The notes under the pieces were generated by a model. It made no database searches. It saw nothing but the letters and a program-made list of their open reading frames with translations, and was not told the DNA's origin. Shown piece after piece: positions 38,442 through 48,926 of a stretch of 64,000 nucleotides of DNA. The stretch lies in NCBI GenBank assembly GCA_963706595.1, contig OY970166.1, positions 2,080,001 through 2,144,000 on the forward strand. Reading direction: 5' to 3'. The position numbers and the translations under genes are program-made. Each line of letters begins with the position of its first letter. Within the stretch, counting starts at the first letter, position 1. The DNA comes from an uncultured cyanobacterium. GTDB lineage: Bacteria > Cyanobacteriota > Cyanobacteriia > Cyanobacteriales > Nostocaceae.

Positions 38442-38739
38442 CAAATTTTGCGCTCCTAAGTTCCATATACTGGTTACTTTAAACTTTAAATACTCAGGAA
38501 GGTATCTACAATAAGATATATGCAAATGTGAGTATATTAGAAAAGTGTAATTTTTCTGTTTAAAGCAGTAATACTACTTAAATTCACTAAAAATAATTCA
38601 GTGTTTGTTGGACAACTATTTAAAGTCCTTATCCTCACCTTGCGAAAATGCAATAAGTTCTGACTACCTCAAAGATGTAAAATTTTTGTTAAATTCATCA
38701 AGCATCTAGAATTTGTCCTCTTTTTATAAGGTTCTCAGC

Positions 38740-40944
38740 ATGACATCAAAAGCATCTTCCGCCCTACCTAATTTTTGTGAAGGGATTCAATATTTTGGTG
38801 AGGCGTTACCAAATTTTGAAAAATATGGTATAATGCCAGCTATAGAGTCTGGCAAGAAGGCGATCGCAGACCCTACAGATGCCGCAGCCGTCTATCAAAC
38901 TTTACTTGCTGCTGATGCCCTGCGCTACCTGACGCTGCAAGTTACAGCTAGTAAAGCATCTGGACACCCAGGCGGTTTTGCCAGTCAAGCAGAAGCTTAT
39001 GCAGCCCTAGTAATGCTGGGTCATAAGAATATTATCACCGAAGTGGGACACCACGCCCCTGGATTCTATAGTGCCATGTTTTTGGATCGTTCCTTGGAAG
39101 ACATGGGCATTTCTACAGTACAGCAATTGCGCGATCGCTTCCGCGAAAAGCACGGACTCTTAGGACACCTTTCCGGTTTCATTCCTGGCATTCTCGCACC
39201 GGCTGGACCACTAGGACAAGGACAACACTTTGCTATGTCCGCCGCCTTGCTGCATCAAGATAAATTATTCCCCTTTACTGTGGGTGATGGTGGATTGGGT
39301 GAGCCTTATATTGTCAGTGCGATCGCCCACTTTAACACAGCATATCCTAGCGTCACCAACTTCTTACCCGTCATGGTGTGGAATGGTTACAGCCAAGAAC
39401 ATCATAGTATGGTTTCCCTGAAAACCAACGCCGAAATGAAAGCCTACTGGCAAGGAAACGGTTTTGCGGAAGTCGTATTAGTGGATGCGAAAGACTTTGA
39501 CGACCAAAACCAACCAGGGGATTATGTAGATAGTACCGTCTTTTCCTTCGAGCAGCGCCTAGCCTTCACCAAAGCCGTACTTTTGGGAATAGATAAAGCC
39601 GCCCATTCTGCGATGAATGGACAGTTAACGGTATTCATCATTAAACAACTCAAAGGCGCAGGAGTTCACGCCCTGGGTTCCCAATCTCACAACCTTTATC
39701 CGAAAGATACCCTAGACGCGCCGCACATTATCAGTGCATTAAAAACCCGTGCTTTATCAGTAGAAGCTTGGGAATTAGTCCGCACAAATGCCGAACGCGC
39801 CGGAGGAGGTCCCGCAGCGAAAACAGTAGTTACAGAATTTGAATTACCCTTAGCAGATTTAGGACAATTACCATTAGAAGAATATACAGTAGGTGGAGAT
39901 CCCAAAGTTGCCACAACCGTAATGGGTAAATTAGTGGGATATGTGGGTAAAAAAGATAGTAACTTCTTAGTCACCAACGCCGACGGAAACGCCGCATCAG
40001 GAATTGGTAACATTAATGAAGCATTAAAAATCATTCACCCCACAACCGATGATTTATATAACCAAGCACCAAACGGACAAGTTTATGAACCATTGAGTGA
40101 AGATGCTTGTGCAGGTTTAGCGGCTGGTTTAGCCTTAATGGGTGCGAGAACATTATGGTGTTCTTATGAATCTTTTGCCATCAACGGTGTACCAATTTGG
40201 CAAACAGTCATCCAAGCAATGGCAGAATTGCGCCGTCAAACACCGTCTAGCATAACATTATTTACAGCCGGAGCATTAGAGCAAGGGCGCAACGGTTGGA
40301 CACACCAACGCCCGGAAATTGAAGCTTACTTTGCGTCACTGATGCGGAATGGAAATGTCTTCCCATTATTTCCCCCTGATGCTAACAGTATCCAAGGCTG
40401 TTATGACTGGGCTTTGCAAACAAAGAATAAGGGAATTGTGATTACAGCCAGTAAGTCACCGTTACCAATTCGCACAACTTTAGAACAAACTCGGCAAGGT
40501 TTAGAAGATGGTGCCATCTTATTACAAGAAGTCCCAGGAGATAAACAAGTTGTGTTTGCAGTCATTGGCGATATGACATTAATTCCTGTGTTTGAAGCGG
40601 CGGCTTTCTTAGAAACTGAAGGTATTGGAGTGAAGATTATTTCTATTATCAACCCTCGCCGTTTGTATCGTCCTAATGATACAGCTTGGGAAACTTGTTC
40701 AGAAGCCGATGGTGGTTTTATGGATGATGCCAAATTTGCCGAATTATTTGATGGAAGTGCCTTAATTGGTGTAACTGGTGGTGCTGCGGCGATGCTGGAA
40801 CCAATTATGTTACGCAGTAATTGCAAGCGTGATACTTTTGCCTGGAAGCGTGGGGAAACTACCGCCAGTGCGGGAGAGTTGATGGCGTTTAATGGCTTGA
40901 CTGCGGAAGCGTTGACTAAGCGTGCTATTGAGTTAGTGCATTAA
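38740..40944 (+). CDS. Phosphoketolase/transketolase-family TPP enzyme
   Basis: SGHPGG, TPP-binding GDG...N, EPLSE, SYESFA and RNGWTHQ motifs. Confidence 0.85.
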   Translation: MTSKASSALPNFCEGIQYFGEALPNFEKYGIMPAIESGKKAIADPTDAAAVYQTLLAADALRYLTLQVTASKASGHPGGFASQAEAYAALVMLGHKNIITEVGHHAPGFYSAMFLDRSLEDMGISTVQQLRDRFREKHGLLGHLSGFIPGILAPAGPLGQGQHFAMSAALLHQDKLFPFTVGDGGLGEPYIVSAIAHFNTAYPSVTNFLPVMVWNGYSQEHHSMVSLKTNAEMKAYWQGNGFAEVVLVDAKDFDDQNQPGDYVDSTVFSFEQRLAFTKAVLLGIDKAAHSAMNGQLTVFIIKQLKGAGVHALGSQSHNLYPKDTLDAPHIISALKTRALSVEAWELVRTNAERAGGGPAAKTVVTEFELPLADLGQLPLEEYTVGGDPKVATTVMGKLVGYVGKKDSNFLVTNADGNAASGIGNINEALKIIHPTTDDLYNQAPNGQVYEPLSEDACAGLAAGLALMGARTLWCSYESFAINGVPIWQTVIQAMAELRRQTPSSITLFTAGALEQGRNGWTHQRPEIEAYFASLMRNGNVFPLFPPDANSIQGCYDWALQTKNKGIVITASKSPLPIRTTLEQTRQGLEDGAILLQEVPGDKQVVFAVIGDMTLIPVFEAAAFLETEGIGVKIISIINPRRLYRPNDTAWETCSEADGGFMDDAKFAELFDGSALIGVTGGAAAMLEPIMLRSNCKRDTFAWKRGETTASAGELMAFNGLTAEALTKRAIELVH

Positions 40945-41092: not shown

Positions 41093-41806
41093 ATGAAGAA
41101 GATAATATTTGTTACTGGTGTTACAAGAATGAGAGAAGGATTTGTATGTGTGAGTGGGATAGACGAGCAAGGGAACTTTGTAAGACCACAGATTCACTAT
41201 CCTGAAAGACCAGGTATCAAGCAGGAATTTCTTTACGTTGAAGGACAAGCAGTAATAAAACCTCTCGCTAAAGTAGAACTAGAGTTCTTAAACCCTGTTG
41301 CTAAGTCAGCATTTCATACGGAAGATTGGGAAATTGATGGTGAAGTTCAACCCAGATTAGTAGGTATACCGAATGATAGTGAAAAATTAGTTATCCTTAA
41401 TCAAAAAACTGATTTTTCATTAGAACAGGCATTAGCTGAACAATCACGTTCAATTGTTATTGTCAAAAGCCGTGAAGTTCCTGAGATTGAAGTTAGAACA
41501 TGGGACGATCAGTTAAAATGTCACTTGTCATTTTATGATGAGTTTGGTGATTATCACCCACACTTACCAGTAACAGATGCAAACTGGTTAGCCGTTTGTA
41601 AGTTTCTTTGGCAAACAGATAGAACAAATTTACAACCAAGATTGACTAAAGCATTGCAAGGTAAAGATATATTTATTAGAATTGGTATAACAAGAGAGTG
41701 GAAAGGTCAAAAATGGCGGCAAATTTCAGGTGTTTTCTCAGTACCAGACTGGTTACAAGGAAAATGTTTTGCTGATTTAGATTATGATTTTAGCGACTAT
41801 GTATGA
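41093..41806 (+). CDS. Dual OB-fold (DuOB-like) domain protein
   Basis: N-terminal VTRMxxGxVCVSGID...FVRP, plus HTED and LPVTD motifs, recognised as resembling the dual-OB family. It sits next to DUF488 genes. Confidence 0.65.
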   Translation: MKKIIFVTGVTRMREGFVCVSGIDEQGNFVRPQIHYPERPGIKQEFLYVEGQAVIKPLAKVELEFLNPVAKSAFHTEDWEIDGEVQPRLVGIPNDSEKLVILNQKTDFSLEQALAEQSRSIVIVKSREVPEIEVRTWDDQLKCHLSFYDEFGDYHPHLPVTDANWLAVCKFLWQTDRTNLQPRLTKALQGKDIFIRIGITREWKGQKWRQISGVFSVPDWLQGKCFADLDYDFSDYV

Positions 41807-41818
41807 GAGAAATAAACC

Positions 41819-42367
41819 ATGAATAATGATAAAGACTTAATTAAAAATAACAATCAATTAACCTTATTTACTATTGGTCATTCCAACCACTGCATTAATA
41901 AATTTATAGAGCTTTTGAAAGCTAACAATGTTTTGTGTATTGTTGATGTGAGAAGTATTCCCTATAGTAAATACAACCAAAGTTTTACTAAAGAAAAACT
42001 ATCTTCAGAATTGCTCCAACATGGAATTGACTATATTTGGATGGGAAATACTTTGGGAGGACGTAGAGATGAATTAGAAAATTCTAGAGGATTTAGGCAA
42101 GATGATAAGTATGATTCAGACCAGGAATATAATACTGGAATTTTAGAACTTATGAGTGTAGCATTTTCCAAAAGAACTGCAATAATGTGTAGTGAAGAAG
42201 ATCCTCGTGACTGTCATCGGCACAAAATTATAGCTAATACTTTATTGCGAAACTTACCAAAAGATTATAAAATTAATAATGCAAAAATTACTCACATTCG
42301 AGCTAGTGGTAAACTAGAAGATGCTTCATTAGTTCAGATTTACTTTCAATTATCATTATTTGGCTAG
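41819..42367 (+). CDS. DUF488 family protein
   Basis: FTIGHSN, VDVRSIPYS, LGGR and MCSEEDPRDCHR motifs. Confidence 0.88.
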   Translation: MNNDKDLIKNNNQLTLFTIGHSNHCINKFIELLKANNVLCIVDVRSIPYSKYNQSFTKEKLSSELLQHGIDYIWMGNTLGGRRDELENSRGFRQDDKYDSDQEYNTGILELMSVAFSKRTAIMCSEEDPRDCHRHKIIANTLLRNLPKDYKINNAKITHIRASGKLEDASLVQIYFQLSLFG

Positions 42368-42376
42368 TTACACAAT

Positions 42377-42814
42377 ATGGGAATTATATACACTATCGGA
42401 TTTACCAAAAAATCGGCAAAAGATTTTTTTGAATTATTAAAAAAAGAAAAAATTGATTTAGTTGCTGATGTCCGTCTTAATAATACTGGTCAGTTAGCAG
42501 GGTTTACGAAAAAAAAAGATTTAGAGTATTTTCTTGACCTTGTAGAAATAAAATACGAGCATTGGAATAATTTTGCTCCGACTAAAGAGATGCGTGATAA
42601 ATATCATGCTACTTGGAACTGGGAAGAGTATGAATCTTCATATCGAAGTCTTCTCAAAGGTCGAAATGCTTTAGAAAAGTTAAATAAACCAATCTTAACT
42701 AATCAAAAAGTATGCTTATTGTGTTCTGAACATACACCTGAAAAATGTCATCGAAGAATAGCATCAGAGATGTTATCTAATATAGTAGGTGGTACAAAGA
42801 TAGTTCATCTTTAG
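42377..42814 (+). CDS. DUF488 family protein (second subtype)
   Basis: YTIGFTKK, DVRLNN, QLAGF, APT and LCSEHTPEKCHRR motifs. Confidence 0.88.
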   Translation: MGIIYTIGFTKKSAKDFFELLKKEKIDLVADVRLNNTGQLAGFTKKKDLEYFLDLVEIKYEHWNNFAPTKEMRDKYHATWNWEEYESSYRSLLKGRNALEKLNKPILTNQKVCLLCSEHTPEKCHRRIASEMLSNIVGGTKIVHL

Positions 42815-42833: not shown

Positions 42834-43020
42834 GTAGGGTGGGTTAGCGACAGCGTAACCCACCAAACCAATAACCTAAACTAAAATGGTGGGTTAGGTT
42901 GCAAACAAAAATCTTCACGTTGAACATATTATTCTCTGCGCCTAACCCACCCTACATCCTTTGTGTCTTTAGGTTGCAAAGGTCAATCATCATGTTTACC
43001 AGATTATCCGGTGCGCCTCA
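42834..43020. repeat. GTAG-type REP/REPIN composite repeat, copy 1
   Basis: GTAGGGTGGGTTAGCG..GCGTAACCCACC ... CCTAACCCACCCTAC, followed by AGGTTGCAAAGG...CCGGTGCGCCTCA. Confidence 0.85.
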
Positions 43021-43065
43021 GTTATAATAAAATAATACCGAAAATTTTACTCAATATAGGAGTTA

Positions 43066-43356
43066 ATGATGGTAACAAAAATTGAAGAAATATATAGAAA
43101 TATTGATACTTTACCAGAAGAAGCTCAAAGCTTACTACTTGATTTTATTCAGTTACTCAAAAAGCATTACCCAAAACCAGAAAATCAACACATAGAAAAT
43201 GAGAAAACTTTCTCATCTACCCAAAAACAAAAACCACATCCACTAGACACATTTATAGAAAAACATGGTGCTTGGGAAGATGAACGCACAGCAGAAGAAA
43301 TAGTCAAAGAAATTTATGATAGTCGGACTATTTCTAACTATGATATTAGCTTATGA
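43066..43356 (+). CDS. DUF2281-like antitoxin
   Basis: IDTLPEEAQSLLLDFIQLL motif. The stop overlaps the start of a PIN gene. Confidence 0.75.
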   Translation: MMVTKIEEIYRNIDTLPEEAQSLLLDFIQLLKKHYPKPENQHIENEKTFSSTQKQKPHPLDTFIEKHGAWEDERTAEEIVKEIYDSRTISNYDISL

Positions 43357-43754
43357 CTTATTTATTAGATACTGACACTTGCATTTACTGGATTAAAAAC
43401 ATTAATTCAGTTAGAGATAAAATTAAACAAATAGGATGGGAGCAAATTTGTATTTGCAACATTACCGTTGCGGAATTATATTTTGGTGCTTATAATTCTC
43501 AACGAGTCACAGAAAATTTAACTCGTGCAGAAAAATTCATTCAAGATATTGAAGTTATAAATTTAGATAATAATGCTGTAAAAAAGTTTGGAGAATTAAA
43601 AGCTGAACTTCGCAAAATAGGACAACCAGTTGCAGATTTTGATTTACTAATTGCTAGTGTTGCACTGACGAAAAGCTATATTTTAGTAACTAATAACACT
43701 CGTCATTATAGCCGAATTTCTAAGTTGAAATTAGAAAACTGGATTTCAGCTTAA
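43353..43754 (+). CDS. vapC: VapC PIN-domain toxin
   Basis: YLLDTD, TVAELYFG, FDLLIAS and LVTNN motifs. Confidence 0.92.
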   Translation: MTYLLDTDTCIYWIKNINSVRDKIKQIGWEQICICNITVAELYFGAYNSQRVTENLTRAEKFIQDIEVINLDNNAVKKFGELKAELRKIGQPVADFDLLIASVALTKSYILVTNNTRHYSRISKLKLENWISA

Positions 43755-43842
43755 AATATTTTTGTAGAAGTAGGTTAGAGCAAATAGCAAAAAATGACAA
43801 AATTTGCCATAGTATAAAAAAGTATATTCAGGAAATCACCTT

Positions 43843-44106
43843 ATGAAAAGTATGAATATTTCCTTACCTGATACTATGCGAACTTATATAGAAGAACAGG
43901 TAGCTCAAGGTGCTTACAGCAGCGTCAGTGAATATTTTCGGGAATTAGTGCGACAAGATCAAAAACAGAAAGCAAATGAACGTCTACAAACCATGCTCTT
44001 AGAAGGATTAAACTCTGGAAATGCAACAGAAATGACTGCTCAAGATTGGGAAGATATCCGTCAAACAGTCAGTGAAAGAATTAACAAACGTCAAAGCGCA
44101 AATTAG
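43843..44106 (+). CDS. ParD-like ribbon-helix-helix antitoxin (orphan)
   Basis: MNISLP, GAYSSVSEYFRELVR and LLEGLNSG motifs. No ParE follows. Confidence 0.85.
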   Translation: MKSMNISLPDTMRTYIEEQVAQGAYSSVSEYFRELVRQDQKQKANERLQTMLLEGLNSGNATEMTAQDWEDIRQTVSERINKRQSAN

Positions 44107-44149
44107 CAGTGATGTATTAAATTTAAAAAAGACCTCCAAAAAAAACGCT

Positions 44150-44368
44150 ATGAAATTTCAAGTAATTTTCACTTATGATTCAGAATATCTAGGTTACGTT
44201 GCTGAAGTACCAGAACTTCCTGGTTGTGTCAGTCAAGGTAAAACCTTAGATGAAGCAATTGAAAATATCAAAGATGCAATAAAAGGCTATCTTCACGTAT
44301 TAGAAAAACATGGTAAACCGTATGTACCTAAAGAGTCTCAATCTTTTGTAGGAGAAGTATTAGTATAA
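44150..44368 (+). CDS. hicB: HicB family antitoxin (short form)
   Basis: YVAEVPELPGCVSQGKTLDEAIENIKDAI. Confidence 0.9.
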   Translation: MKFQVIFTYDSEYLGYVAEVPELPGCVSQGKTLDEAIENIKDAIKGYLHVLEKHGKPYVPKESQSFVGEVLV

Positions 44369-44587
44369 ATGGGACGTTTATCCAATATTTCCGGTAAACA
44401 AACAATCAAAATTTTTGAAAAATTTGGCTATGCTGTAGATCATCAAACCGGAAGTCATATCATACTTTGGCACGAATCAAAACCCATTTTATCAGTTCCC
44501 AATCATAAAGAACTAGCACCAGGGTTACTCAGAAGTTTAATTAGACAAGCAGAAATTACAGTAGATGAATTTTTAGGAAATAAGTAA
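44369..44587 (+). CDS. hicA: HicA family toxin
   Basis: QTGSH, VPNHKEL and GLLRSLIRQA motifs. Confidence 0.9.
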   Translation: MGRLSNISGKQTIKIFEKFGYAVDHQTGSHIILWHESKPILSVPNHKELAPGLLRSLIRQAEITVDEFLGNK

Positions 44588-44595
44588 TACCTTTA

Positions 44596-44777
44596 GTGGG
44601 TAATCGCGTAACCCACCAAACCAATAACCTAAACTAAAATGGTGGGTTAGGTTGCAAACAAAAATCTTCACGTTGAACATACTATCTCTGCGCCTAACCC
44701 ACCCTAAATCCTTTGTTTCTTTAGGTTGCAAAGGTGAATGATCATGTTTACCAGATTATCCGGTGCGCCTCACCCAC
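44596..44777. repeat. REP/REPIN composite repeat, copy 2
   Basis: Near-identical to 42839-43020. Confidence 0.88.
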
Positions 44778-44860
44778 TTAGTTATGTTAATTACCTAGAG
44801 GATAAATAGGGTGTAATATAAGTTAAAACTTCAACAGCTTACCACACCCCAAATGTAATC

Positions 44861-45412
44861 ATGACCACAGATGCAGAATATCAAGGAAGAATTACCAGCT
44901 ATGACTGGGATGATTTAATGAGATTATGGTCAGAAATTAAAGCAAAAAATACTTCCAATTTTTGGGATGCAGATAAAGCATTAGAATATTTAGTTTTACG
45001 CGCATTTCAACTCGATGGTGCTGAAGTAGCTTGGCCTGATAGTGTAAAAATTAAAGGAAAAATAGTAGAACAAATTGACGGCGTGGTATACACAGACAGC
45101 CTAGCTTGCCTGATAGAATGTAAAGATACCACAGAAGAGGTTAATATTGAACCAATAGCAAAGCTACGAAATCAACTACTACGAAGACCAGCCACAGCTA
45201 TTGGTAGCGTGTTTAGTCGCACTGGATTTACAGAAGCCACCGTAACATTAACTGGGTTTGTTGCTCCTCAAACTATTCTATTGTGGGGAGGAGAAGAAAT
45301 TGAATATTCACTACAACATAAATTTATATGTAAATCCCTAGTCAAGAAATATCGTGTTTGTGTTCATAAAGGTATCCCTAACTACGACATTATAACGGAG
45401 AGTTTTTCATGA
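44861..45412 (+). CDS. Mrr-like PD-(D/E)xK restriction endonuclease domain protein
   Basis: LEYLV, EQIDG, LIECKD and GFTEA motifs. Confidence 0.78.
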   Translation: MTTDAEYQGRITSYDWDDLMRLWSEIKAKNTSNFWDADKALEYLVLRAFQLDGAEVAWPDSVKIKGKIVEQIDGVVYTDSLACLIECKDTTEEVNIEPIAKLRNQLLRRPATAIGSVFSRTGFTEATVTLTGFVAPQTILLWGGEEIEYSLQHKFICKSLVKKYRVCVHKGIPNYDIITESFS

Positions 45413-45963
45413 CACTAGCATATATGATTGCAGAAAGTGAAACAAATATAGAGATTTTACAGAAATTACTGCCAAAAAATCTGATTCAAGATATCCAATT
45501 TATAGCAGGTGAAAGTTCTTACAGAGCGCGTTCTTTAGCTACTTCACTTCTAGCGACTCGAAAAATACCAGTTGCTCTTGTCATCGATGCAGATACAGAT
45601 CACGAATCTCAAGTATTTGAAAAGCAAGATTTAATTAATTATGTATTAAATCAAGCATCTTCTGGTACTCCATTTCAATTATTTTTGGCTGTTCCTCAAT
45701 TAGAAATTTTATTGTTAGAAGATAAATCATTAATTGAGAAAATGGCACAAAGGAAATTTAATGATTTAGAATGGCAATTTGCCCAAAGTAAACCTAAAAA
45801 ATTTTTAGAGACAGTCTTAGGAAAAGAACAGTCAATAAACGAGAGAATATTTAGTAATATCAATGAGCAAGAAATTAAGATATTACGACAACACCCATTA
45901 ATACAACAAATGATAGTTTTCTTATCATCTCTGACCTCAGACGTGATGATAACACAGCGATGA
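45409..45963 (+). CDS. Hypothetical protein, possibly with a TOPRIM-like fold, coupled to the REase gene
   Basis: ATGA overlap with the upstream gene. It has an N-terminal strand with E (IAESE), LVIDAD and PQLE. Confidence 0.6.
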   Translation: MTLAYMIAESETNIEILQKLLPKNLIQDIQFIAGESSYRARSLATSLLATRKIPVALVIDADTDHESQVFEKQDLINYVLNQASSGTPFQLFLAVPQLEILLLEDKSLIEKMAQRKFNDLEWQFAQSKPKKFLETVLGKEQSINERIFSNINEQEIKILRQHPLIQQMIVFLSSLTSDVMITQR

Positions 45964-45964
45964 C

Positions 45965-46027
45965 GGGTTAGCGATCGCGTAACCCACCAAAGCAATAACC
46001 CAAGTGTAAATACTGGCTGAGGTTGCA
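45965..46027. repeat. REP repeat, copy 3 (truncated)
   Basis: GGGTTAGCGATCGCGTAACCCACC...GTGTAAATACTGGCTGAGGTTGCA. Confidence 0.85.
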
Positions 46028-46071
46028 CGTCGCCAAATTGGTAGCGAAGCCGCACGTAAATTGATAAAAAC

Positions 46072-46332
46072 CTATTTTTTATACACCTCTCGCCGATGCT
46101 TACATTGAATGAGTAAAATAATTAATTCTTGATCTTGAATTTCATAACGTAAGCGATAGTCTCCAATTCTAATTCGATATTCATTTTCATAACCTTTCAG
46201 TTTTACTACTCCATTAGGACGAGGTTCGTCTGCAAGCTGGCAAATCTTTTCATATACACGCTCTTTGAGATTATTAGGAAGATTATCTAATTGTTTTTGA
46301 ATAGATTTAGTTATAATAATTTGGTACGTCAT
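46072..46332 (-). CDS. relE: RelE/ParE family toxin
   Basis: PRPNGVVKLKG, YRIRIGDYRLRY and HRREVY motifs. Confidence 0.92.
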   Translation of the reverse strand: MTYQIIITKSIQKQLDNLPNNLKERVYEKICQLADEPRPNGVVKLKGYENEYRIRIGDYRLRYEIQDQELIILLIQCKHRREVYKK

Positions 46333-46337
46333 AGTAT

Positions 46338-46580
46338 CTATTTACGCTGATTGCTTAGATACTGCTCAAAAGTAGTATATTCACCATTGGCGTATTCATC
46401 ACGTACTAACTGAATCTCTCTTGCAGTTGCTTCATCTTCTTCCCAACTTTCTTCTTCAGCTTCAGCAATAGCTTGATCAAGAATCTCCCAAAGTAGCTTT
46501 TTTTCTGATAGATTTAGCCCACTTAAGGAGTTGATGAGTAACTCCATAGGAATGAATAAATTTAGTCCTGCTTGTGACAT
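46338..46580 (-). CDS. Putative antitoxin for RelE
   Basis: Acidic 80-aa ORF directly upstream of relE, with a GEYTTFEQY tail. Confidence 0.75.
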   Translation of the reverse strand: MSQAGLNLFIPMELLINSLSGLNLSEKKLLWEILDQAIAEAEEESWEEDEATAREIQLVRDEYANGEYTTFEQYLSNQRK

Positions 46581-46676
46581 TGCTTTGATTATCCTAATGT
46601 CTATCTTTATATTTTATCAGATAACTATTAGTTGATAGCACAAAATCGTGTTTTTGAATAGATTAAGTTATAGTAT

Positions 46677-46788
46677 GTAGGCTGAGTTAGCGATCGCATA
46701 ACCCACCAAACCAGTAACCCAAGTGTAAATACTGGCTGAGGTTGCAAAGGTGAATCATCATATTTACCAGATTATCCGGTGCGCCTCA
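46677..46788. repeat. REP repeat, copy 4
   Basis: GTAGGCTGAGTTAGCGATCGCATAACCCACC...GGCTGAGGTTGCAAAGG...CCGGTGCGCCTCA. Confidence 0.85.
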
Positions 46789-46833
46789 GTTATAATAAAA
46801 TAATACCGAAAATTTTACTCAACGTAGGAGTTA

Positions 46834-47103
46834 ATGATGGTAATAAAAATTGAAGAAATATATAGAGATATTGATACTTTACCAGAAGAAGCTCAAACCT
46901 TACTACTTGATTTTATTCAGTTACTCAAAAAGCGTTACCCACAAACAGAATTAGAAAATAATACTTCTATTTCTCCTCTCCAAAGCCTAGAATCTTTATC
47001 TGAACTTGACCCCTGGACACAAAGCCTAATAGGTGTAATTCCCTTAGAATCACAAAATCCAGAAGAAATTTATGTTAATTACCTAGAGGAGAAATATAGT
47101 TGA
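46834..47103 (+). CDS. DUF2281-like antitoxin (chimeric paralog of the 43066 gene)
   Basis: The first 36 aa are nearly identical to the 43066 ORF. The C-terminus (PWTQSLIGVI...YLEEKYS) is unrelated. Confidence 0.78.
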   Translation: MMVIKIEEIYRDIDTLPEEAQTLLLDFIQLLKKRYPQTELENNTSISPLQSLESLSELDPWTQSLIGVIPLESQNPEEIYVNYLEEKYS

Positions 47104-47516
47104 AACGGGTATTATTTGACAGCGATGTTTTGCTGGATATTTTAGCAGAGCGTCAACCGTTTGTTGTCGCCTCAGCACAAGCATTAAATACAGTCATCAA
47201 AAAACAGGTACAAGGCTTTGTTTCAGGACACGCTGTTACTAATATTTTCTATATTTTACGTCGCCAAATCGGTAGCGAAGCAGCACGTAAATTAATAGAA
47301 ACCTTATTGCAACACATTCAAATTGCCAGCGTTACAGATGAAGTAATTCACCAAGCTTTGCAAAGTCCAATTAAAGATTTTGAAGATGCGGTGACAAGTG
47401 CAGCAGCAATGGCTGCAAGTTTAGAAATAATTGTGACACGAAATACATCCGATTTTGTAGCTTCTTCAGTCCCAGCAGTGTTACCAGAAGAGTTCTTAAA
47501 AATTGTTTCTGATTAA
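47100..47516 (+). CDS. PIN-domain toxin
   Basis: VLFDSDVLLD, DFEDAV and IVTRN motifs. Confidence 0.88.
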   Translation: MKRVLFDSDVLLDILAERQPFVVASAQALNTVIKKQVQGFVSGHAVTNIFYILRRQIGSEAARKLIETLLQHIQIASVTDEVIHQALQSPIKDFEDAVTSAAAMAASLEIIVTRNTSDFVASSVPAVLPEEFLKIVSD

Positions 47517-47536
47517 GTTAGTATAAATAAAGATAG

Positions 47537-47765
47537 GACTACACAAGTAAACCCCTTTCACATGGCAAAACCATACAAATTATGATTCTCGAACCAAGCG
47601 AATCTACTCAAAAAATAGATTCTGAAGAATCCAAAATACAGCAATTTTTAGCACGAGTTAATAACTACTCCTTCCCACTCCCCCCAGACTACAAATTCAA
47701 TCGAGAAAAAATCTATGACAGATAAAATATTTCTCGATACCAATCTCTGGATTTATCTCTATGCT
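47537..47765 (+). pseudogene. Remnant TA pair: 5'-truncated antitoxin plus the first 18 codons of a PIN toxin
   Basis: ...LPPDYKFNREKIYDR* (stop at 47725) overlaps the ATG at 47715 of MTDKIFLDTNLWIYLYAK, which then breaks off. Confidence 0.7.
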
Positions 47766-47983
47766 AAAAAATTTTTATTGCTAGACAAATCATTTGCTGC
47801 TTCCACACAACCAATGTATTCTTGAGCCATAGTTAAAGCCGAAATACCTGATTTTTGGGGTTGATTTGATAACCCTTGTTTGTGGATTTTCGCTAGTAAA
47901 AATTCTACAAAATCCAGCGCCTCTTGTTGCCTATCAGGAGGTAATATCCTTACCTTGTCTATAATAATTTCTTCAATACTCAT
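47759..47983 (-). CDS. DUF2281-like antitoxin (orphan, probably 3'-truncated)
   Basis: LPPDRQQEALDFVEFLL and GCVEAANDLSSNK motifs. No toxin follows. Confidence 0.72.
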   Translation of the reverse strand: MSIEEIIIDKVRILPPDRQQEALDFVEFLLAKIHKQGLSNQPQKSGISALTMAQEYIGCVEAANDLSSNKNFLA

Positions 47984-48050
47984 TTTATTTGTCCTCTGGG
48001 AGAAATAAATATAGTTTAAATTTTATCACATAACACTATAATTAGCTAAT

Positions 48051-48098
48051 AGTGTAAATAGTGGCTGAGGTTGCAAAGGACAATCATCATGTTTACCA
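48051..48098. repeat. REP repeat, copy 5 (internal fragment)
   Basis: AGTGTAAATAGTGGCTGAGGTTGCAAAGGACAATCATCATGTTTACCA. Confidence 0.8.
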
Positions 48099-48148
48099 AA
48101 AAATATCAAAATAATATATACTACTGATAGTATGACTGTGGGTAGGAT

Positions 48149-48370
48149 ATGGCTAAAATCTCAATTTCATTGCCAGATGAACTACTAAATTACATTGACC
48201 AAAAAGTTGAAAACCGTAGTGCATTGATTGAAAATCTCTTGAAACAATGGCAAGAAAAACAACAAGATGAAGCACTAGCGGCCGCTTGCGCCTTGGTTGA
48301 TGAATTAGAATTAGGTTGGGAAAGTGAATGGCAAAATATAGCGATTACCGAATGGGAAGCATCTGGATAG
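48149..48370 (+). CDS. CopG/RHH antitoxin
   Basis: KISISLPDELLNYID and NRSALIE motifs. Confidence 0.82.
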   Translation: MAKISISLPDELLNYIDQKVENRSALIENLLKQWQEKQQDEALAAACALVDELELGWESEWQNIAITEWEASG

Positions 48371-48705
48371 TAACATTTGATTTCTCTGTAGGTACAGAAA
48401 TTCAAAAAACTCGTCCAGCACTCATAGTTTCTGGGACTTTGTTTAACAACCAACGCAGCAAAGTCACAGTTTTACCTTTTACTTCCGCCAAACCTAATAA
48501 TCCTCGTATTTCACCTGCGGTAGTTGCAGTACCTTCATCATCACAAAATGGACTTTCTGTAGACAGTCTTTTGATATGCGTTGAACCGATGACATTTGAC
48601 AAAATTCGTTTAACTCAACAACTAGGTGAATTAGAAACAGAATTACTAGAAAAAACCCAAAATATTCTGCGTAGATACCTGAGTTTAAGCAACTATCAAT
48701 CGTAA
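48328..48705 (+). CDS. mazF: PemK/MazF family toxin
   Basis: VGTEIQKTRPALIVS, VLPFTS and NGL..DS motifs. Confidence 0.9.
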   Translation: MAKYSDYRMGSIWIVTFDFSVGTEIQKTRPALIVSGTLFNNQRSKVTVLPFTSAKPNNPRISPAVVAVPSSSQNGLSVDSLLICVEPMTFDKIRLTQQLGELETELLEKTQNILRRYLSLSNYQS

Positions 48706-48708
48706 TTT

Positions 48709-48761
48709 GTAGGTTGGGTTACACAATTTGCAACCCAACTCTCAACGAAAGTTCCTCAGCC
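48709..48761. repeat. Degenerate GTAG REP, copy 6, at the right boundary of the island
   Basis: GTAGGTTGGGTT...AACCCAAC...CCTCAGCC. Confidence 0.65.
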
Positions 48762-48776
48762 ACATTATATAAATGC

Positions 48777-48926
48777 TTATGGCATAGGGTGAAAGAGAAG
48801 GTCAGGGAAAATGTAATTAAAGATTGCCCAAGTAGAGAACGCAACTATAACTGAAGCGACTGCAAGAACAGGTGCAGTGGAAAGATACTGAAGAAAATAT
48901 TCTTTTTCCTGATTTTGTTTTTTCAT
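48777..48926 (-). CDS. psaJ: Photosystem I subunit IX (stand-alone paralog, 49 aa, not in the ORF track)
   Basis: Manual translation: MKKQNQEKEYFLQYLSTAPVLAVASVIVAFSTWAIFNYIFPDLLFHPMP. It has the YLSTAPVL and NxxFPDLLFHP signatures. Confidence 0.9.
   Translation of the reverse strand: MKKQNQEKEYFLQYLSTAPVLAVASVIVAFSTWAIFNYIFPDLLFHPMP

What the first reader, a model, noticed from the sequence alone, without database searches (positions are those of the whole stretch)
42834..48761. REP-punctuated cassette array of TA/defence modules, with no integrase in view
Seen in the sequence: six full or partial copies of one composite GTAG-palindrome element, in the same orientation, at 42834, 44596, 45965, 46677, 48051 and 48709. 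They separate [DuOB-DUF488x2] | [antitoxin-VapC, ParD, HicBA] | [REase + partner] | [RelE pair, inverted] | [antitoxin-PIN, remnants] | [RHH-MazF]. That is five intact TA pairs of four toxin folds in under 6 kb. Established: GTAG-type REPs are substrates of RAYT (TnpA-REP) HUH enzymes. Inference: the repeats act as recombination or insertion sites that accumulate and exchange small cargo, like an integron but built on REPINs, using an enzyme in trans or homologous recombination.
Basis: partly seen in the sequence, partly recalled or inferred. Interest (0 to 1): 0.8.

Follow-up and report, generated by a model that had tools for sequence, protein, structure and literature searches.

The report
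Repeat-shuffled toxin-antitoxin array behind phosphoketolase
Behind one conserved metabolic gene, many filamentous cyanobacteria keep a train of toxin-antitoxin modules separated by short palindrome-headed repeats; related genomes carry the same modules in different orders but never flipped, likely because ordinary recombination between the repeats, not an integron integrase, duplicates, drops and reorders them.

Summary
Five of the six listed repeats are pieces of one array-specific, REPIN-derived element; the sixth is a sister REP. In 11 congeneric genomes the same modules follow the phosphoketolase gene (xfp) in shuffled order: 31 of 45 genome pairs conflict, none inverted. 28 of 48 distinct module joins lie at repeats, which cover 9.6% of the DNA. 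In other Nostocaceae genera the same modules follow xfp, split by different array-specific repeats that also start with a GTAG REP; 138 of 138 module hits keep their orientation; one array spans about 24 kb. It is not an integron: the family's own attC sites are absent. The REPs are RAYT-cognate, but crossovers fall in disjoint windows, duplicated modules and microhomology deletions abound, and the exact RAYT is in 1 of 11 genomes. Best reading: homology-driven duplication, loss and exchange, with toxin-antitoxin selection; a weak junction signal leaves RAYT nicking open. psaJ is not the conserved flank. The scan earlier noted xfp 3'-end scars in integron arrays of another genome, not this array. 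Not found in 10 literature searches.

The parts
38713..40944 (+).
   Evidence: present in 41 of 41 genomes; array directly downstream in congeners; its last 200 nt match twice or more in 19 of 147 family genomes
41093..42814 (+). Strain-specific first module: DuOB + two DUF488 genes, resembling PADLOC candidate system PDC-M45
   Evidence: not found at this place in the 10 congeners, which carry other first modules
42834..43020 (+). Repeat 1, full composite: type-a REPIN (42834-42955; GTAG REP, spacer, inverted long-loop REP ending CTAC) plus a type-b tail
43021..43182 (+). Shared 'head': promoter-like region (inferred) and 5' end of DUF2281 antitoxins, 95% identical to 46789-46950; extends the homology
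   Evidence: (D2)
43066..43754 (+). DUF2281 antitoxin + VapC (PIN) toxin
43843..44106 (+). Orphan ParD; its ParE partner is deleted here but whole in G009, G024, G087, G115
44153..44587 (+). HicB + HicA
44603..44777 (+). Repeat 2, 5'-truncated type a + b tail (no GTAG)
44861..45963 (+). Restriction-endonuclease-like ORF (weak Mrr_cat, below cut-off) + partner ORF without family
45965..46027 (+). Repeat 3, type b truncated on both sides; followed by a 47-nt scrap of the PIN_3 gene (46027-46073)
   Evidence: (D7)
46072..46580 (-). RelE/ParE-fold toxin + putative antitoxin, on the minus strand in every genome
46677..46788 (+). Repeat 4, full type b
46834..47516 (+). DUF2281 antitoxin (shared head, different tail) + PIN_3 toxin
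47567..47770 (+). Remnant of another antitoxin-PIN module, whole in G005-G008
47759..47983 (-). Orphan DUF2281 antitoxin; its PIN toxin was lost at a 5-nt microhomology join
48051..48098 (+). Repeat 5, internal piece of type b
48149..48705 (+). RHH/MazE-like antitoxin + MazF toxin
48709..48742 (+). Sister REP (GTAGGTTGGGTT); the genome-specific rearrangement that brought psaJ here breaks inside it
48777..48926 (-). psaJ; flank in this genome only

Best explanation
This is one member of a family-wide cassette array anchored at the 3' end of xfp, in which toxin-antitoxin and defence-type modules separated by REP-headed direct repeats stand in different orders in different genomes, likely through homology-driven unequal recombination (duplication, loss, exchange between strains) rather than a site-specific recombinase. 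Shown: shuffled order, fixed orientation, flank reassortment across repeats, duplicated modules, microhomology deletions, toxin-first decay, xfp 3'-end scars, absence of attC. Inferred: (1) new cargo likely enters next to xfp by recombination on its 3' end, pushing older cargo downstream and sometimes leaving a second xfp end; (2) RAYT-spread REPs land in the gaps and, once duplicated with neighbouring promoter and antitoxin 5' DNA, become 20-350 nt direct homologies; (3) crossovers anywhere in these homologies duplicate, delete or swap whole modules, and duplication followed by random loss would permute order without inverting anything; crossovers in the shared head would make chimeric antitoxins; (4) toxicity likely keeps the array from collapsing, since losing an antitoxin or a whole pair is costly and losing a toxin is not.
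For: Order conflict in 31 of 45 congeneric pairs, 121 of 320 module pairs (orders curated by hand); 0 inverted matches of 60 nt or more among 10 arrays; 138 of 138 module hits in one orientation over 41 loci. 28 of 48 distinct adjacencies at repeats that cover 9.6% of 43,805 nt (kin are not independent, so the binomial p overstates). Crossover windows are disjoint: one flank switches between types a and b within positions 22-45, another starts at position 51 and exchanges right flanks within 51-70. Duplicated modules in G006 (two modules twice), G066 (ParD piece four times), G093, G160; doubled repeat in G007. Direct joins show 0-15 nt overlaps, and by my reading 15 of 20 break a module. Different lineages use different repeats at the same locus: a 220-nt repeat headed by the sister REP is confined to the array in G107 (8 of 8 hits), G087 (3 of 3), G041 (3 of 3), G115 (32 of 33). 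Antitoxin intact/toxin lost 21 cases, the reverse 1, of 62 module-genome cases (not independent, one ParE loss counts several times). VapC module or its head lies within 15 kb downstream of xfp on the same strand in 38 of 49 non-congeneric genomes for which both places were listed; 2 far, 9 on other contigs. Established parallels: REPs at microhomology duplication joints in E. coli (PMC1428787, passages); anchor-gene displacement arrays (PMC5361080, passages).
Against: No crossover was observed in action, and RecA dependence was not tested. Repeat copies are not significantly more alike within than between genomes (p 0.07, 0.14, 0.10, 0.86), so gene conversion among copies is not shown. Some exchange windows are only 20-25 nt, short for RecA (recalled). 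Right-hand truncation points of the repeat fall at A|G (C|T on the other strand, the RAYT cut) in 5 of 8 modules (p 0.0016) or 3 of 6 distinct sites (p 0.043). The ParD module starts at the same base in several unrelated left contexts, which plain homology does not explain. The 20 extra family loci were picked for xfp-end duplication (15) or closeness (5), not at random.
Confidence: 0.6

Rival explanations
1. RAYT-driven cassette system: a REP-associated HUH tyrosine transposase encoded elsewhere nicks single-stranded repeat DNA at C|T and ligates the enzyme-linked end to foreign 3' ends, creating module boundaries and excising or reinserting modules in one orientation; homology only assists.
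For: The array REP flanks an intact RAYT in G009; the sister REP heading the other genera's repeat flanks RAYTs in G001, G006, G107, G087; this genome has a RAYT at C1:4904619 (180 bits) with a third, closely related REP. A|G excess at right edges, as expected if the Tyr-linked end is kept. RAYTs cut at C|T 5' or 3' of a REP and perform strand transfer in vitro (PMC8266576, passages). All three repeat types seen start with a GTAG REP.
Against: Exact cognate RAYT in 1 of 11 congeners; G007 and G008 (draft assemblies) have no hit over cut-off; G115, with the longest array, has only sub-cut-off hits. Three of five copies in the window lack GTAG. Left edges 1 of 5 at A|G, none at C|T; sites were curated by hand after seeing the data. 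No TA enrichment beside REPs genome-wide.
Confidence: 0.25
2. Passive punctuation: an old accessory hotspot behind xfp is shuffled by generic illegitimate recombination and strain exchange; REPs merely land in the gaps and play no special part.
For: REPs are common (560 GTAG hairpins in the genome); the modules are older than this repeat; 20 of 48 joins avoid repeats.
Against: The composite repeats are array-specific and multi-copy, with module-fixed truncation points and reassorted flanks; by my reading joins between intact modules are 28 at repeats against 5 elsewhere.
Confidence: 0.08
3. Integron-derived array (CALIN) or an unknown tyrosine recombinase acting in trans on a cryptic site.
For: IntI over cut-off in 11 of 201 Nostocaceae genomes; fixed orientation and a most-variable first position resemble integrons; the type-b arm shares about 12 nt with the loop of some family attC sites; earlier scan notes tie xfp 3'-end scars to integron arrays in another genome.
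Against: An HMM and a covariance model built from 9 family attC sites recover further attC sites in IntI-linked arrays but none in the window or in xfp loci (41 loci; window + 27 loci). No convincing attI (2 partial hits in 41 loci). No IntI in this genome (31 bits against cut-off 265). No single crossover site.
Confidence: 0.07

Closest known systems
Sedentary chromosomal integrons / CALIN with TA cassettes (Cury et al. 2016, PMC4889954, passages seen)
   Same: Array of small modules split by related repeats, fixed orientation, reordering between strains, TA modules among the cargo, no integrase beside the array, most variable module first
   Different: No attC, attI or IntI; repeats are REP-headed and truncated at module-specific points; crossovers scattered; modules carry their own promoter-like heads; cargo is almost only TA/defence-type
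REPs, REPINs and RAYT/REPtrons (PMC3116915, PMC3733652, PMC8266576, passages seen)
   Same: GTAG-tagged palindromes, inverted doublet forming a long hairpin, cognate RAYT flanked by the same REP in relatives, tandem REPIN clusters with flanking DNA
   Different: In the passages seen REPINs move themselves; here REP-headed repeats delimit gene modules that change order across a family. Assignment to GTAG-12, -15 or -16 was not possible (consensus figure not held; 4 supplement files without a match)
Vibrio cholerae T6SS effector-immunity arrays (Kirchberger et al. 2017, PMC5361080, passages seen)
   Same: Integrase-free array beside a conserved anchor, built by homologous and homology-facilitated illegitimate recombination; toxins lost, immunity genes kept; constant 5' part with variable 3' part
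   Different: Here intracellular type II TA pairs, dedicated non-coding repeats between modules, and full permutation of order rather than sequential displacement
REP- and microhomology-joined tandem duplication/amplification in E. coli (PMC1428787, passages seen)
   Same: Short-homology joints, some in REPs, followed by recombination between repeats
   Different: Transient amplification of one segment, not a heritable multi-module array

Membership tests
Integron / CALIN | attC sites between cassettes | tested here: not met
   family-specific HMM and covariance model: hits in IntI-linked arrays, 0 in window and xfp loci
Integron / CALIN | IntI integrase and attI | tested here: not met
   best TIGR02249 score 31 of 265 bits in this genome; no family attI motif in the genome at 2 mismatches or fewer
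Integron / CALIN | single crossover point (G|TT) | tested here: not met
   disjoint exchange windows
REP / REPIN | GTAG tag followed by a palindrome, many extragenic copies | tested here: met
   13 exact-start and 54 sister hairpins in the genome
REP / REPIN | inverted doublet folding as one hairpin | tested here: met
   42834-42955, z -6.1 and -5.7 on the two strands; type-b copies do not fold better than shuffles
REP / REPIN | cognate RAYT flanked by the same REP | tested here: met
   G009, L066; in this genome only a RAYT with a sister REP
RAYT-mobilised gene cassette system (proposed) | module boundaries at C|T cuts | tested here: inconclusive
   5 of 8 right edges, 3 of 6 sites, 1 of 5 left edges
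RAYT-mobilised gene cassette system (proposed) | rearrangement depends on RAYT; circular intermediates | not testable with these tools
   only assembled contigs of relatives were available
Shufflon / invertible system | segments invert between inverted sites | tested here: not met
   0 of 138 module hits inverted; 0 inverted matches
Type II toxin-antitoxin modules | adjacent antitoxin and toxin-family ORFs | tested here: met
   Pfam/NCBIfam; the antitoxin of the RelE pair has no family hit over cut-off
Type II toxin-antitoxin modules | toxicity neutralised by the cognate antitoxin | not testable with these tools
   indirect only: toxin-first decay 21 against 1
Core-gene-anchored accessory/defence hotspot | fixed core anchor with variable conflict-type cargo across taxa | tested here: met

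The most novel reading that the evidence does not exclude
Nostocaceae have an integron analogue built on HUH chemistry: domesticated RAYTs in trans nick REP-headed repeats to capture and reorder toxin-antitoxin and defence cassettes behind xfp, with the repeat alphabet switching (three REP-headed types seen) as RAYT-REP pairs turn over. It would be a host function for RAYTs and a second natural gene-cassette system.
Probability: 0.2. Interest if true: 0.9.

Novelty: new variant of a known kind. Interest (0 to 1): 0.66.

Why it matters
It shows an integron-like outcome (a long, reorderable, orientation-locked cassette train of up to about 24 kb) reached without integron parts, at one locus across many genera of bloom-forming and nitrogen-fixing cyanobacteria. 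Even on the conservative reading it is a compact natural test bed for how direct repeats plus addiction build and keep TA arrays, and how chimeric antitoxins arise from a shared head. It also makes an open question directly testable: whether RAYTs do anything for the host beyond spreading REPs, because the substrate, a cognate enzyme and predicted cut positions are all in hand.

Tried and rejected
xfp-psaJ as a conserved interval: rejected. TA enrichment beside REPs genome-wide: none for six GTAG families, all together 7 of 39 against 23%. PF01797 missed the true RAYT of this genome; NF047646 found it. Integron/CALIN: rejected; one solo attC lies elsewhere in the genome. Rfam: 0 matches in 3 loci. 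Concerted evolution of repeat copies: not significant in 4 of 4 tests. The first dinucleotide test (8 of 16) was discarded because two edges were misplaced, some were duplicates and the null ignored chance extension; one search replaces it. The xfp tree of congeners is unresolved (2 of 10 inner branches supported), so order changes could not be mapped on a phylogeny. Sequencing runs: none holds half of the stretch (best share 0.33); three isolate-type runs and two metagenomes share the main joints of one arrangement and show no alternative joints within the isolate runs, but contigs drop rare variants, so this neither shows nor excludes ongoing shuffling; RNA-library contigs cover the modules but cannot show expression. 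A 19-nt pattern scan of genome contigs gave 26 stretches; the cyanobacterial ones are this same locus in records titled Nodularia or Anabaena, the others are single matches taken as chance and not examined. Literature: 10 searches returned no description of this array; the library lacks most subscription papers, and a recalled paper on small dispersed repeats of cyanobacteria was not held, so it is unchecked.
Full report
Observation. The window is from a Nostocaceae genome (G000, one contig). Of 44 PIN, ParE, HicA and MazF hits in the genome (one 371-aa PIN hit dropped and two pieces of one gene merged) this is the only cluster of three or more. Five repeat copies are pieces of one composite; the sixth (48709) aligns over 13 nt only and is a sister REP. 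The composite has two forms that share a 5' GTAG REP: type a, a REP doublet folding as a 122-nt hairpin (z about -6), and type b. The palindrome is a genome-wide REP family, the composite is confined to the array.

Congeners. All 10 other genomes of the genus have the array behind xfp (in G009 a contig break separates xfp from the array). The right flank is a 71-aa ORF plus an S-layer-like gene in 6 of 10; psaJ sits elsewhere, and the break that joined it here lies inside the sister REP. The first module after xfp differs between nearly all genomes (GTPase, GIY-YIG, 2OG-Fe(II) oxygenase and unknowns). The TA modules are shared at 92-100% identity but in different orders: 31 of 45 genome pairs conflict, 121 of 320 module pairs are discordant (orders curated by hand), with no inverted match. 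43 repeat copies in 10 arrays have 21 left and 13 right flank classes in 36 combinations, cycle rank 6: flanks reassort across the repeats. 28 of 48 distinct adjacencies are at a repeat (3 of them at the sister REP) although repeats cover 9.6% of 43,805 nt. The other 20 are direct joins with 0-15 nt overlaps; by my reading 15 of them break a module. Each module keeps its own truncation point in the repeat, and the windows in which exchange must have happened do not overlap (22-45 against 51-70), so there is no single crossover site. Three DUF2281 antitoxins share a 162-nt head and differ in their tails; one tail matches an antitoxin with another N-terminus in G013, so chimeric antitoxins are inferred. 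Decay is toxin-first: 21 antitoxin-only cases against 1 toxin-only of 62 (not independent).

Family. The locus is older than this repeat. The VapC module or its head matches in 70 of 200 family genomes; for 49 non-congeners with both places listed it lies within 15 kb downstream of xfp on the same strand in 38, far away in 2, on another contig in 9. Of 30 non-congeneric xfp loci examined (10 from the relatives list, 20 chosen for xfp-end duplication or closeness), 13 carry two or more of the modules, 18 of 36 pairs conflict in order, all 138 module hits over 41 loci keep their orientation, and none has the composite. Instead they carry other array-specific direct repeats that also begin with a GTAG REP: a 220-nt repeat in G107, G087, G041, G115, G133, G069, and a shorter one running into the ParD promoter in G066, G093, G136, G146. 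The 220-nt repeat is confined to the array in four near-complete genomes of four genera (8 of 8, 3 of 3, 3 of 3, 32 of 33 hits), and scraps of it survive in congeners of the window. The G115 array spans about 24 kb. Module identity mostly tracks xfp identity, with a few outliers that suggest transfer. The last 200 nt of xfp match twice or more in 19 of 147 genomes; in those fetched the second piece mostly lies 0.3-6 kb downstream in the same direction, with cargo between, which fits loading at the xfp 3' end.

Enzymes. No IntI in this genome. IntI occurs in 11 of 201 family genomes, with a recognisable attI and classic attC sites. Profiles built from 9 such sites find further attC sites in those arrays and none in the window or xfp loci. 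RAYTs over cut-off occur in 9 of 11 genus genomes. The exact array REP flanks an intact RAYT in G009 only; this genome's RAYT has a sister REP; the REP heading the other genera's repeat flanks RAYTs in G001, G006, G107 and G087. G115, with the longest array, has no RAYT hit over cut-off. Toxins outside the array are not enriched near REPs. Right truncation points of the repeat fall at A|G, the complement of the RAYT cut C|T (PMC8266576, passages), in 5 of 8 modules (p 0.0016) or 3 of 6 sites (p 0.043); left ones in 1 of 5. This is a hint from few, hand-curated sites.

Mechanism. The simplest account of scattered crossovers, duplicated modules (G006, G066, G093, G160), microhomology deletions, strict orientation and interchangeable repeat alphabets is unequal recombination among direct homologies, with duplication and random loss permuting the order, exchange between strains, loading at the xfp end, and TA toxicity filtering what survives (0.6). 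Passive punctuation (0.08) and an integron origin (0.07) fit poorly. Against the best reading: homogenisation of copies within genomes is not significant, some windows are only 20-25 nt, and no event was seen in reads (contigs only).

Known and new. It works like a sedentary integron or CALIN in outcome (PMC4889954, passages) but fails every membership test; it resembles anchor-gene displacement arrays of V. cholerae T6SS immunity genes in likely mechanism (PMC5361080, passages); its repeats are true REP/REPIN derivatives (PMC3116915, PMC3733652, passages; 4 supplement files of the latter searched without a match, its consensus figure is not held). Ten searches found no account of this array; most subscription papers, including a recalled study of cyanobacterial small dispersed repeats, could not be seen. 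Earlier scan notes on other genomes describe xfp 3'-end scars in integron-type arrays; they prompted the attC test, which was negative here. Verdict: real, family-wide, apparently undescribed; a new variant of integrase-free cassette arrays, interest 0.66, with a 0.2 chance of being a RAYT-driven cassette system.

Noticed in passing
G000:C1:4904619-4905071 (L068): Intact-looking RAYT (NF047646, 180 bits) flanked by three tandem and one inverted GTAGGGTGTGTT REPs; missed by PF01797. A second, more distant RAYT-like gene at C1:329267 is flanked by non-GTAG repeats.
   Followed up: partly
G000:C1:3956771-3956855: One solo attC-like site (E 1e-5) in a genome without IntI.
   Followed up: no
L114-L124, L136-L147: Nostocaceae integrons: IntI over cut-off in 11 of 201 genomes, shared attI ending TAATAAATAG|TT and 85-88 nt attC sites; L114 looks GC-rich and may be a contaminant contig.
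   Followed up: partly
window 48777 and L027-L036: The DNA beyond the psaJ stop differs in each congener printed (4 of 4); in G003 it encodes a TniB/TnsC-like ATPase piece (label recalled). The psaJ 3' end may be a second insertion hotspot.
   Followed up: no
L094:3991-4968 and L103:805-1206: HUH enzymes as cargo at the xfp hotspot: a Rep_1 rolling-circle protein after the xfp 3' duplicate in G115, and a Y1 transposase between xfp and its 3' duplicate in G140.
   Followed up: no
G000 genome-wide; G005 and G006 arrays (L010, L014): A ~105-nt GTAG-tagged element (about 97 sites in this genome, often tandem) inserts at the CTAC end of other REPs, including the array repeat.
   Followed up: partly
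G000:C1:1689950-1728000: After a tRNA-like gene lies a ~26-kb segment ending at the displaced right flank of the array, followed by a 3742-aa ORF; part of the rearrangement that moved psaJ.
   Followed up: no
L094:5500-9300 (G115): Dense tandem copies of a ~97-nt unit containing the HIP1 octamer inside the array's repeats.
   Followed up: no
window 42847-42854 region and 45970-45977, 46690-46697: The loop of the array REP often holds the HIP1 octamer GCGATCGC (name recalled), itself linked to recombination in cyanobacteria (recalled).
   Followed up: no
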